Source of the DNA: Eledone cirrhosa
Lineage: Eukaryota
Direction of reading: 5' to 3'
DNA: 64,000 nucleotides
NCBI GenBank assembly: GCA_964016885.1
Contig: OZ024756.1
Coordinates: 39,184,001-39,248,000, forward strand
Both the position numbers and the translations under genes were made by a program. Shown piece after piece: positions 28,750 through 63,572 of this stretch. The notes below the pieces were generated by a model that saw nothing but the letters and a program-made list of their open reading frames with translations, made no database searches and was not told the origin of the DNA. Each line of letters starts with the position of its first letter. Position 1 is the stretch's first letter.

Positions 28750-28988
28750 GTGTTAGGTAATTCGGAAGGAAAAAAAGAGTGCTCTATGTATAGAACAGAG
28801 CTATTTAATTAGAAAGTGAACAACACAAAATATAATTACTCCATTACCAAAGGTTTCTGGATCCTAGACAATATTGTCATACATCTAGACTGGTCATCAG
28901 ATAGATGTTATGGATAAAAAATATGAAATGGAACCAGAAACCTTTGGTAATGGAGTAGTTATATTTTGTGTTGTTCACTTTCTAATTA
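28750..28988 (-). mobile_element. Penelope-like fold-back element (55-bp arms 28806-28860/28934-28988 + tail)
   Basis: Hammerhead core in the spacer; tail nearly the same as at 58845-58872. Confidence 0.65.
28840..28905 (-). ncRNA. Type I hammerhead motif with degenerate stem II
   Basis: TCTAT-CTGATGA-C...A-GAAA-CC-TTT-GG-TA-ATGGA on the minus strand. Confidence 0.55.
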
Positions 28989-31519: not shown

Positions 31520-32028
31520 CTCTCCCCTCTTTCTTTTATTCATACCCCCCACCCCTCTCTGTCTTTTATATCTCCCCCGTCTCTCTCTCTCATATCTTTT
31601 CCCCTCTTATTCATATTTCCTCTTTCTTTTATATATCTCCCCTCTCTCTTTCTTTTATTTATATCGCTCCCTCTCTTTTATTAATATCCGCCCCCTTTCT
31701 CTCGCCTTGTTCCCGTATATTCCCCCCTCTCCCTCGTTACTTTCCTTTGCCCTCTCTTTTGCTTCTTTGCTCTCTTCTCTCTTCCCCTCTCTTACTTTGT
31801 TGTTTCGTTCTCTCACACACTCTCTCTTATATATATATATATATAGATATAGTAATAATAAATGTGAAGACTAAAAGCCAAAGAGGGCTCGATAAGGATA
31901 GATATATATCAAATATATAAGAACCCAAGAGCAAATATTTAGTATTTAAATATATATAGCTCTGTAACATACATAGAGCACTCTTCACTCCTATGACTTT
32001 TTCAATTTTCAACGGAAACTTCAATACT

Positions 32029-43652: not shown

Positions 43653-44160
43653 GGAGGATTGGCAGTATCGGTAGAGGGTCGGACGCCTTTGACGCATAGA
43701 GTTACGGCCCTTGCCATTCTGAGTTCAAATCCCGCCGAGGTTAACTTTGCCTCTCATTCTTACGGGGTCGATGAAATAAAGTACCAGTAATGTACTGGGT
43801 ATTTGCTGGCCTTGTGCCTAAAGTAGAAACAATTATTATTTCTATATTTATAATTGTTTCTACTTTTGGCACAAGGCCAGCAATTACCCAGTACATTACT
43901 GGTACTTTATTTTATCGACCCCGTAAGAATGAAAGGCAAAGTTAACCTCGGCGGGATTTGAACTCAGAATGGAAAGGGCCGTAACTCTATGCGTCAAAGC
44001 ATGGCATCCGACCCTCTACCGATACTGCTAACCCATATATAATACTTTCTGGAAAGGTTTAAACGGTGGATTGGCAGTATCTGTAGAGCGTTGGCCGCCA
44101 TGCTTTCTAACAATGTACTGGGTAATTGCTGGCCTTGTGCCAAAAGTAGAAACAATTATT
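43653..44160. mobile_element. Inverted pair plus a truncated third copy of the same SINE (others at ~16470-16855, 22627-22838, 33130-33593, 34895-35100, 40945-41110, 42737-42927, 47445-47640, 48300-48410, 51487-51630, 60703-60901, 61813-61972)
   Basis: Same consensus throughout; the 48300 copy has a ~19-bp TSD CATTAATTATTCATCTTAA. Confidence 0.82.
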
Positions 44161-58376: not shown

Positions 58377-58905
58377 AGAGAGTGTAGAATTGGTAAAAAT
58401 CTAAAATTGAATTGGGAAATACATAATTAATTGGAGTTGGAAAAGTTGTGTAGGAGTAAAAAATAATAATAAAGCGGGTGTGATGAAGAGAATAGATACG
58501 ATGAATAAAAATCACTATATGGTATTACTTCTTAGATAAATCGATTATATTGGCGCCAAGTGTTCTGTAGTAAGCGTCGAAGAGGGCTGAATTCATTTAG
58601 TGAATCAATGCTGAGACTTGCTACCCCACGGGGACTGATATATACGTTATATGTTAATACACGGATTTACAGACACTATAAACATAACAAGTATACGCAC
58701 CCGTATTTCTTCTTCTTTTTCTTTTCTTTTTCTTTTTCTTTTCTTTTTCTTTTTCTTTTTTTCTTCTTCTTCTTCACTTTTATTATTATTATTACTATAT
58801 ATATATATAAATGAAGTAATTCCGTCGGAAAGGTCCAGGAAAAAAGAGTGCTCTATGTAGGTTACAGAGCTTATTATTTATGTAATAAACAACATAAGAT
58901 AATTA

Positions 58906-58966
58906 TTTCATTTACCAGTGGTTTCTTGAAAGCAAACATAATTTGCTTTCAGTCATCAGAATGAAA
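58906..58966 (-). ncRNA. Type I hammerhead ribozyme motif (mirror copy in the other palindrome arm)
   Basis: Reverse complement of 59031-59091 with one loop difference. Confidence 0.85.
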
Positions 58967-59030
58967 AAATCCTGGTGTATTTATTGACAGTGGTTTTTAA
59001 AATCCACTGTCAATAAATACACCAGGATTT

Positions 59031-59091
59031 TTTCATTCTGATGACTGAAAGCAAATTTTGTTTGCTTTCAAGAAACCACTGGTAAATGAAA
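59031..59091 (+). ncRNA. Type I hammerhead ribozyme motif
   Basis: Stem I TTTCATT/AATGAAA; CTGATGA 59038-44; stem II TGAAAGCAAA/TTTGCTTTCA; GAAA 59072-75; stem III ACC/GGT; GUA cleavage triplet 59082-84. Confidence 0.85.
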
Positions 59092-59123
59092 TAATTATCT
59101 TATGTTGTTTATTACATAACTAT

Positions 59124-59162
<39 letters not shown>

Positions 59163-59886
59163 ATGTGTGTGTGTGTGTGCAGAAAAAGAAGTTAGACATT
59201 GGGAAAAAGAGAAAAGTGATTTTATTCTTTGGAGCACAAGGTTAGAATATAATGTCCGTCGTTTTATTTTATTTTTGTTGCTATTCTTTATCCTATTCTA
59301 CCCCTATTGGGAATATTAACCTTCTTCAAAATACTCCATCTTCATTGCTGATGTCCTATAATATAATCAATGCTATTGTTTGAGGCAGTTTTTTTTCTTT
59401 CTTTATATATCAAAATCTATTGATATGTGTTTATTATAGTTATTGTGTTGTAGGTACGTGTTATTGATGTAGTTTGTCGTAAAGCTTTTCCAAACAATCT
59501 ATCTATTAATAGTCGCCAAACTATTCTACTATTTGTTTTATGTTTTGTCTGGCGACATCGTCTTCCTCTTACCAAAATAATTATCTTTACTCTTATAGTT
59601 CAGCTCTTTTTCATTCATTTTTTTAAAAACTTTCTTCTTTTATCTCTCTTTCTTCTCTTCATTGTCCGGATTTATATATTCATACATTTATATCTTTCTC
59701 TTCTGTTATTTTTTCCTGATTTTTTTTTCTTTCTGTTTTCTTTCTTTCTTTTTCTTTCTTTCTGCCATATTTCCCTCATTTTAAAAGCTTTTTTCTATTT
59801 CTTTCTTTTTTCTTTTTTTTTCTTCTTTTTTCCTTTCTTTTTTCCTTTCTTTTCCTTTCTTTTTTTCATTCTTTTTTATTCTTTTT

Positions 59887-63452: not shown

Positions 63453-63572
63453 TGCTTACAGCACCTACGTTTCCCAAGCGGTCACCCATACAAGTACTAA
63501 CTAGGTTCGGCGTTGCTTAACTTTCAGTGTTCGGACGAGCACCGGTGTTTTCAGCGTGATATGGTCGTAAAT
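63453..63572 (-). pseudogene. 5S rRNA-derived copy (pseudogene or head of a 5S-derived SINE)
   Basis: Reverse complement TTACGACCATATCACGCTGAAAACACCGG...AGTTAAGC...TTAGTACTTGTATGGGTGACCGCTTGGGAA...GTGCTGTAAGCA matches the 5S pattern; several substitutions; no T4 terminator. Confidence 0.9.

What the first reader, a model, noticed from the sequence alone, without database searches (positions are those of the whole stretch)
58878..59119. Two mirror-image complete hammerheads with a C10.1/A11.1 mismatch
Seen: the 242-bp palindrome encodes a full type I hammerhead on each strand (7-bp stem I, 10-bp stem II, 3-bp stem III, GUA site at 59082-84). The base of stem II is C/A rather than the usual purine-pyrimidine pair. 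The same CTGATGA-C...A-GAAA-CC-NNN-GG-TA arrangement recurs at 28840-28905 in an otherwise different element, which argues for a conserved variant rather than decay. A transcript through the locus would set ribozyme folding against a 120-bp hairpin.
Basis: partly seen in the sequence, partly recalled or inferred. Interest (0 to 1): 0.75.

Follow-up and report, generated by a model that had tools for sequence, protein, structure and literature searches.

The report
Head-to-head Penelope-like retroelement ends
This 242-base mirror-image stretch is two short, back-to-back end fragments of an abundant jumping gene (a Penelope-like retroelement), each carrying that element's usual ribozyme motif; it was likely made by copying the element's RNA onto both ends of one DNA cut, and its odd C/A mismatch is one of several states at a variable position, not a specially conserved feature.

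Summary
There is a 242-bp palindrome (238/242 self-complementary) with a type I hammerhead motif on each strand and C/A at the base of stem II. It is not a stand-alone device. The element includes a 63-66-nt one-sided 'tail' at 58812-58877 and lies in (TA)n. The tailed arm is 183/191 identical to the upstream pseudo-LTR of a full-length Penelope-like element whose ORF carries the Hydra-clade motifs.

C/A is fixed in this subfamily but makes up only 1257 of 6947 motif matches genome-wide. The intact-ORF family has U-A. Published Hydra hammerheads often have U·U there, and one published PLE has C·A. Catalytic G5 and G8 stay fixed (about 3% changed) while N7 varies, so the core looks selected and the 10.1/11.1 pair does not.

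Any read-through RNA has only one sense ribozyme, buried in a hairpin favoured by about 76 kcal/mol. The tail sits on exactly one end in 59 of 65 inverted pairs, and the junctions fit annealing of two cDNAs, which supports two-ended priming. The scan reached this model before on other DNA of this genome. Cleavage and expression are untested.

The parts
58797..58811 (.). (TA)n target-site microsatellite, left flank
   Evidence: sequence; same flank type in relatives
58812..58877 (-). One-sided 63-66-nt 'tail'; in full-length elements it continues into the 5' UTR about 120 nt before the ORF start
   Evidence: L050, L068
58878..58998 (-). Tailed arm: 5'-truncated pseudo-LTR copy, sense on the minus strand
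   Evidence: arm plus tail 183/191 identical to the upstream pLTR of L050
58906..58966 (-). Type I hammerhead motif (core 58959-58913; predicted cut after the A at 58913)
58992..59005 (.). Inversion junction at a self-complementary T/A run of the pLTR
58999..59122 (+). Short-ended arm: inverted 5'-truncated pLTR copy ending at the fixed short end
59031..59091 (+). Type I hammerhead motif (core 59038-59084; C59045 opposite A59071; GUA 59082-84; predicted cut after A59084)
59123..59165 (.). (TA)n target-site microsatellite, right flank
   Evidence: sequence
28751..28984 (-). Older insertion of a sister subfamily: tail (about 28751-28810), one complete but decayed motif (28900-28845) and a shorter inverted arm holding only the 3' half of the motif

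Best explanation
The palindrome is two 5'-truncated copies of the ribozyme-bearing end (pseudo-LTR) of a Hydra-type Penelope-like retroelement, joined head to head inside a TA repeat, and it likely arose when the element's enzyme cut both DNA strands and copied its RNA from each cut end. Shown: identity with the pLTR of full-length copies; the TERT-like ORF with Hydra motifs in those copies; two fixed 3' ends about 36 and about 103 nt past the predicted cut site; one of each kind at the two ends of most inverted pairs; C/A as one of several states at 10.1/11.1 with a fixed catalytic core. Inferred: one strand is primed at the 'short' start and the other at the 'tail' start; both cDNAs stop early, here at a self-complementary T/A run, anneal and are filled in. 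Also inferred: the hammerhead works, if at all, slowly, as a stem-III dimer and probably with help from the element's protein, in transcripts of the parent element, and it tolerates loss of the 10.1-11.1 pair. At this locus it is a passenger that a read-through RNA would lock in a 116-bp hairpin.
For: Tailed arm 183/191 identical to the upstream pLTR and 5' UTR of L050, which has pLTR, decayed ORF and pLTR in order, and 168/197 identical to L068, which has an intact 710-aa ORF. The ORF has RWK, DKT, YRDD, CxCX5C, CxxC and CxH, the Hydra diagnostics of PMC8557442 section 11. It is collinear by eye with Hydra-1_Obim. Its model (pLDDT 94) matches telomerase RTs best (E about 1e-8). Tail on exactly one end in 37 of 40 palindromes chosen by a tail-free query and in 22 of 25 close inverted pairs chosen by core motif (p 2e-8 and 2e-4 against 50:50). 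Arms differ by 2.15 sites within a locus versus 4.57 between loci, and subfamily-diagnostic sites are shared by both arms. The same junction site recurs in C/A and U/A subfamilies. Three of the four possible resolutions of a symmetric 12-bp self-anneal are seen: 4 symmetric, 5 from the tail strand, 5 from the other (one of these has no tail to orient it); a further 13 of 40 keep both ends plus filler. In vitro, a PLE protein cuts and extends both strands and starts at two internal sites that bound the tail, and its ribozyme needs protein and is dispensable for insertion (PMC11167929). Core: G5 changed 230 and G8 changed 225 against 6947 intact, N7 changed 8218. Dimer -38.0 vs 2 x -14.5 kcal/mol.
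Against: No biochemical or RNA evidence of any step. The 40 palindromes are the best-scoring of 1618 candidates, so the junction hot spot is partly selected by the query; 5' ends of core-selected copies are scattered (17 to over 128 nt upstream). 13 of 40 junctions fit none of the classes, and the fourth resolution was not seen. In the in vitro paper the RT start did not differ between the two strands, whereas the model needs one start per end. The tail (63-66 nt) and the unit length (about 4.4-4.6 kb between pLTR cores) are longer than the published 30-40 bp and under 3 kb. Pfam gave no RT or GIY-YIG hit on the ORF, and sequence searches of solved structures found nothing relevant. Part of the N7 variation may be CpG decay. 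No target-site duplication can be read in (TA)n.
Confidence: 0.8

Rival explanations
1. Same element, but made by one cDNA that folds back at its 3' end and copies itself; the endonuclease then trims the second arm at the short site.
For: The asymmetric junction can be drawn as a snap-back of a single cDNA end; the arms are more alike within than between loci; Craig et al. attribute the tail to endonuclease resolution of an intermediate.
Against: The asymmetric signature lies on the tail strand in 5 copies and on the short strand in 4 oriented copies, and 13 of 40 junctions keep both ends plus filler. Long inverted pairs with unequal truncation show the same one-tail pattern (L047-L049).
Confidence: 0.13
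2. The hammerhead of this subfamily is catalytically dead because of the C·A mismatch; the conserved core is kept for protein binding or by inheritance. This concerns the ribozyme only and is compatible with the best explanation of the palindrome.
For: Cleavage was not needed for insertion in vitro (PMC11167929); PLE hammerheads are weak even as dimers (PMC4209133); G10.1-C11.1 is described as highly conserved, and its loss lowers activity (recalled).
Against: G5 and G8 are fixed across subfamilies while N7 and stem II change; stem I keeps pairing through sequence changes (175-184 of 190 at the first six pairs); 15 of 26 published Hydra rows also lack the pair.
Confidence: 0.3
3. The palindrome is itself a mobile unit (MITE-like or a non-autonomous hairpin element) whose arms are kept alike by conversion.
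For: All 40 scored matches are near full-length palindromes at 90-100% identity.
Against: Junctions vary among copies, both arms carry the marks of different source subfamilies, and the tail side is not tied to the junction orientation. Many copies are single or long, and turn points vary in DNA contigs.
Confidence: 0.04
4. One reading: a conserved C10.1/A11.1 hammerhead variant on both strands acting as a ribozyme/hairpin switch at this locus.
For: C/A is fixed in the subfamily and appears in two separately supported clades.
Against: Only 18% of motif matches; U at 59045 carries 79% of summed contig depth in one DNA run; hairpin favoured by about 76 kcal/mol with the antisense arm made first; nothing marks this copy as special.
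Confidence: 0.03

Closest known systems
Hydra-clade Penelope-like elements (Craig et al. 2021, PMC8557442; e.g. Hydra-1_Obim, Penelope-13_HM)
   Same: RWK, DKT, CxCX5C, CxxC/CxH motifs; about 710-aa ORF; (TA)n target; hammerhead in the pLTR; inverted 5'-truncated copy (Penelope-13_HM is listed with a hammerhead on both strands); one-sided tail; unpaired 10.1/11.1 followed by Y-G...C-R in many members.
   Different: Different family and hammerhead from Hydra-1_Obim; unit about 4.4-4.6 kb rather than under 3 kb; tail 63-66 nt rather than 30-40; C·A rather than U·U; here both copies are truncated to about 120 nt.
Minimal and palindromic-helix-III hammerheads of metazoan PLEs (Cervera and de la Pena 2014, PMC4209133)
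   Same: Type I, long helix II, short self-complementary helix III, predicted dimer; pairs on opposite strands 100-700 bp apart were reported in Schistosoma.
   Different: They report one extra nucleotide after A9 and a conserved G10.1-C11.1; here the constant G-C/G·U pair sits third on both sides and the first pair is variable.
PAc (Poseidon, Anolis) in vitro system (Frangieh et al. 2024, PMC11167929)
   Same: Two internal RT start sites bounding the tail; both target strands cut and extended; AT-rich target.
   Different: Other clade; its hammerhead overlaps the ORF start, here it lies about 260-270 nt upstream; no strand difference in start site was seen in vitro.
Animal non-LTR retrozymes (bioRxiv 10.64898/2026.07.22.740005)
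   Same: Non-coding, type I hammerhead, PLE-related.
   Different: Retrozymes are tandem arrays of monomers; this is two inverted, truncated pLTR pieces with no tandem unit.

Membership tests
Type I hammerhead, PLE dimer type | Core CUGANGA / GAAA / NUH in a three-way junction with open stem I | tested here: met
Type I hammerhead, PLE dimer type | Short self-complementary stem III able to extend in a dimer | tested here: met
   predicted only: dimer -38.0 vs 2 x -14.5 kcal/mol, intermolecular duplex -8.8
Type I hammerhead, canonical | R10.1-Y11.1 (G-C) pair closing the core | tested here: not met
   C59045/A59071; R/Y in 1927 of 6947 matches, nearly all A-U or G·U in the 100 listed
Type I hammerhead, canonical | Match to an Rfam hammerhead model | tested here: not met
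   none among the 150 rows shown of 153 at E<=1
Type I hammerhead | Self-cleavage after position 17 | not testable with these tools
   needs an in vitro assay
Hydra-clade PLE | Telomerase-like RT in a single ORF | tested here: met
   parent ORF model matches TERT best; YRDD at 346
Hydra-clade PLE | RWK, DKT, CxCX5C linker, CxxC and CxH motifs | tested here: met
   positions 37, 114, 555, 658, 689 against the definition
Hydra-clade PLE | C-terminal GIY-YIG endonuclease | tested here: inconclusive
   YVG at 594 after the linker; PF01541 on 1 of 120 listed homologs; no Pfam hit on the ORF itself; C-terminal part not searched by fold on its own
Hydra-clade PLE | pLTR with hammerhead, (TA)n target, inverted truncated copy, one-sided tail | tested here: met
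Hydra-clade PLE | Generally short (<3 kb) | tested here: not met
   about 4.4-4.6 kb between pLTR cores because of a long microsatellite-rich 3' region; a general trait, not a diagnostic
Hydra-clade PLE | Phylogenetic placement with named Hydra RTs | not tested
   published proteins were seen only as cut text and compared by eye
Non-LTR retrozyme | Tandem monomers, each with a hammerhead | tested here: not met
   no tandem unit
MITE / DNA transposon | Symmetric terminal inverted repeats moving as a unit | tested here: not met
   asymmetric ends, variable junctions

The most novel reading that the evidence does not exclude
Hydra-lineage hammerheads are a natural, active class that has dropped the 10.1-11.1 pair (C·A, U·U, A·A, A·G, even a 2x2 loop before the first G-C) because the element's protein or dimerisation supplies the missing stability. 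Every Hydra insertion uses two different fixed RT starts, one per target strand, and is closed by annealing of the two cDNA ends, so these short palindromes are the direct footprint of the unsolved second-strand step of Penelope transposition.
Probability: 0.35. Interest if true: 0.55.

Novelty: new member of a known kind. Interest (0 to 1): 0.3.

Why it matters
As a locus it is ordinary: one of thousands of truncated Penelope-like insertions. Its value is as data. The one-tail-one-short rule (59 of 65 pairs) and the junction patterns give a testable model of how Penelope-like elements make their inverted copies, a step the in vitro paper leaves open. The genome also holds intact 710-aa ORFs for such a test, and a natural allelic series at the hammerhead 10.1/11.1 position on a fixed catalytic core.

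Tried and rejected
No RNA holder listed, so expression was not examined. DNA contigs showed no empty site and none spanned the element. Idea that the junction marks a transcription start where both cDNAs run off: not supported, because 5' ends of core-selected copies are scattered. Idea that the invariant pair in third position is a displaced G10.1-C11.1: possible, but the listed G-C-G...C-G-C copies (about 3 of 100, my count) suggest an ordinary stem whose first pair eroded, partly by CpG decay at C11.1-G12. Pfam and sequence searches of solved structures were uninformative for the ORF. Rfam miRNA hits over the palindrome are below gathering score and reflect the hairpin. Lunse et al. 2017 was not held and is known here only through a review; it and the unread supplements of PMC4209133 may already describe such 10.1/11.1 variants. 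Literature searches for an octopus PLE hammerhead study or a two-ended priming model found nothing beyond Craig et al.; no measured rate for a C·A variant turned up. A look-up of earlier notes by this sequence found none.

Full report
Observation. The stretch 58878-59119 is self-complementary at 238 of 242 positions. Stem lengths, the GUA at 59082-84 and the C59045/A59071 apposition are as stated. An isolated arm folds as a hammerhead (z -2.5 and -3.0); the 28.8-kb copy does not (z -1.1). Rfam shows no hammerhead among the 150 rows displayed of 153.

It is a repeat family with a tail. The window lies in a 3.0-Gb genome. The palindrome has 1618 candidate matches; the 40 scored are all near full-length palindromes at 90-100% identity. 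Their flanks show that the element is (TA)n, a 63-66-nt tail, the palindrome, then (TA)n. Across loci, the 3' ends cluster about 36-40 and about 99-109 nt past the predicted cut site (that script did not remove overlapping loci, so I use it for positions, not counts).

The parent is a Penelope-like element of Hydra type. Locus L050 has a pLTR with a C/A hammerhead, the tail running on into a 5' UTR, a decayed ORF, a microsatellite-rich 3' region and a second pLTR ending at the short site. The window's tailed arm is 183/191 identical to its upstream pLTR. A protein search gave 66,998 candidates; among the 150 scored, many lie in open frames of about 714 codons. All 16 such loci that I fetched hold an ORF of 713-718 codons. 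The ORF has RWK, DKT, YRDD, CxCX5C, CxxC and CxH, the Hydra diagnostics given in PMC8557442 (section 11 read), and is collinear by eye with Hydra-1_Obim in its supplement. Its model (pLDDT 94) matches telomerase RTs best. Pfam and sequence searches of the PDB found nothing; homologs at 41-59% identity are almost all unnamed. The host is probably a cephalopod, which is an inference from the closest published relative only. Inverted truncated copies and one-sided tails are standard for PLEs (PMC8557442 passages), and hammerhead pairs on opposite strands were reported in 2014 (PMC4209133, parts 1-2 of 4 read).

The C/A mismatch. With U at position 7, the motif has 6947 matches (control 1): 1257 are C/A, 1927 are R/Y (nearly all A-U or G·U in the 100 listed), and 6264 have Y-G...Y at the second and third positions. 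In 190 distinct motifs from my loci (enriched for C/A by how they were fetched), the first pair forms in 88, the second in 156, the third in 184 and the fourth in 186. In the intact-ORF loci the pLTR motif has G7 and U-A (that output was cut, and L074-L076 were only partly visible). On a tree of 32 representatives (reduced from 82 tailed motifs at 93% identity, with 10.1 and 11.1 masked), C/A occurs in two separately supported clades mixed with other states and needs at least 3 changes. In one DNA run, U at 59045 carries 135,307 of 172,209 summed depth. So C/A was present in source elements that amplified, but it is labile. It is also in print: File S2 of PMC8557442 lists C·A for PLE-X1_cBra, and U·U in 14 and U·C in 1 of 26 Hydra rows (my count), with the same Y-G...C-R next to it.

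Is the ribozyme real? Changing G5 or G8 leaves 230 and 225 matches, about 3% of 6947, as expected from decay after insertion. Changing N7 gives 8218 (partly CpG decay, and a few are double counts of one locus). That N7 is the free position and G5 is essential is recalled; G8 is shown essential for a PLE hammerhead in PMC11167929 (parts 1-2 of 4 read). Stem I stays paired in 175-184 of 190 at its first six pairs through sequence changes. Stem III is predicted to extend in a dimer, as described for PLE hammerheads. This favours a selected, probably slow and protein-assisted ribozyme in the parent transcript, but activity is untested, and cleavage was not needed for insertion in vitro. At this locus a read-through RNA of either strand has the antisense arm first and one sense motif second; the hairpin is -195 to -197 kcal/mol against -119 to -121 with the hammerhead forced. 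There is no real competition and no intramolecular dimer.

How the palindrome forms. The tail is on exactly one end in 37 of 40 palindromes (1 on both, 2 on neither) and in 22 of 25 close inverted pairs from several subfamilies that I picked from the listed matches (3 on neither) (p). The arms of one locus differ at 2.15 sites against 4.57 between loci, and both arms carry the marks of their own subfamily. Junctions at the self-complementary T/A run fall into 4 symmetric, 5 tail-strand, 5 other-strand (one without a tail to orient it), 13 with both ends plus filler and 13 other. This fits two cDNAs, primed at two fixed starts from the two ends of a cut, meeting and annealing, independently at each insertion. 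The in vitro data on a Poseidon element support both-strand extension and two starts, but saw no strand difference. The 40 were chosen by likeness to the query, and 5' ends of core-selected copies are scattered, so the hot spot may be overstated. Snap-back of one cDNA remains a rival.

Second locus. 28751-28984 is an older insertion of a sister subfamily with the same tail (70/105 identity downstream of the cut site), one complete decayed motif and a shorter inverted arm. It falls in the other C/A clade, so it is neither unrelated nor proof of conservation.

Earlier notes of this scan, read after I had recorded my reading, report the same two-ended model on retrozyme arrays and a Hydra palindrome elsewhere in this genome. 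They are not independent evidence. Also seen: bioRxiv 10.64898/2026.07.22.740005 (part 1 of 5); passages only of PMC6765202, PMC2837043, PMC11300833, PMC6155905 and PMC2777235. Lunse et al. 2017 and the supplements of PMC4209133 were not seen and may bear on novelty.

Verdict. A new family of a known kind of element, in a known insertion pattern, with a ribozyme irregularity already tabulated for the clade. The quantitative end and junction rules and the natural allelic series are useful for experiments. Interest 0.3.

Noticed in passing
L067-L082, about 2.45-2.6 kb after the ORF start: Most of the intact-ORF loci shown carry a second, diverged hammerhead-like motif in the 3' region (A7, U-A at 10.1/11.1, G at the cut position, which breaks the NUH rule); it looks like an old pLTR end fixed inside the master element.
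   Followed up: no
window 31950-32026 (+): An isolated tail of a related subfamily between TA runs, with no hammerhead before it.
   Followed up: partly
L079 and L082: Other small hammerheads with a canonical G10.1-C11.1 pair, one of them as an inverted pair: further PLE-like families in this genome.
   Followed up: no
L053:2741-4489 (-): 583-codon open frame of a second Hydra-type family, 37% identical to the L068 ORF.
   Followed up: partly
L052:1960-6128 (+): Gag-like and 1061-codon pol-like open frames of an LTR retrotransposon, recognised by eye.
   Followed up: no
window 43687-43979: Two copies of a short interspersed repeat (families D13-D15, D19) in inverted orientation forming a long hairpin.
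   Followed up: no
window 63453-63572 (-): A single 5S rRNA-like copy, 85 bits.
   Followed up: no
L004, right flank: An element of a sister subfamily starts with its tail just beyond the TA run, an example of insertions clustering in the same microsatellite.
   Followed up: no
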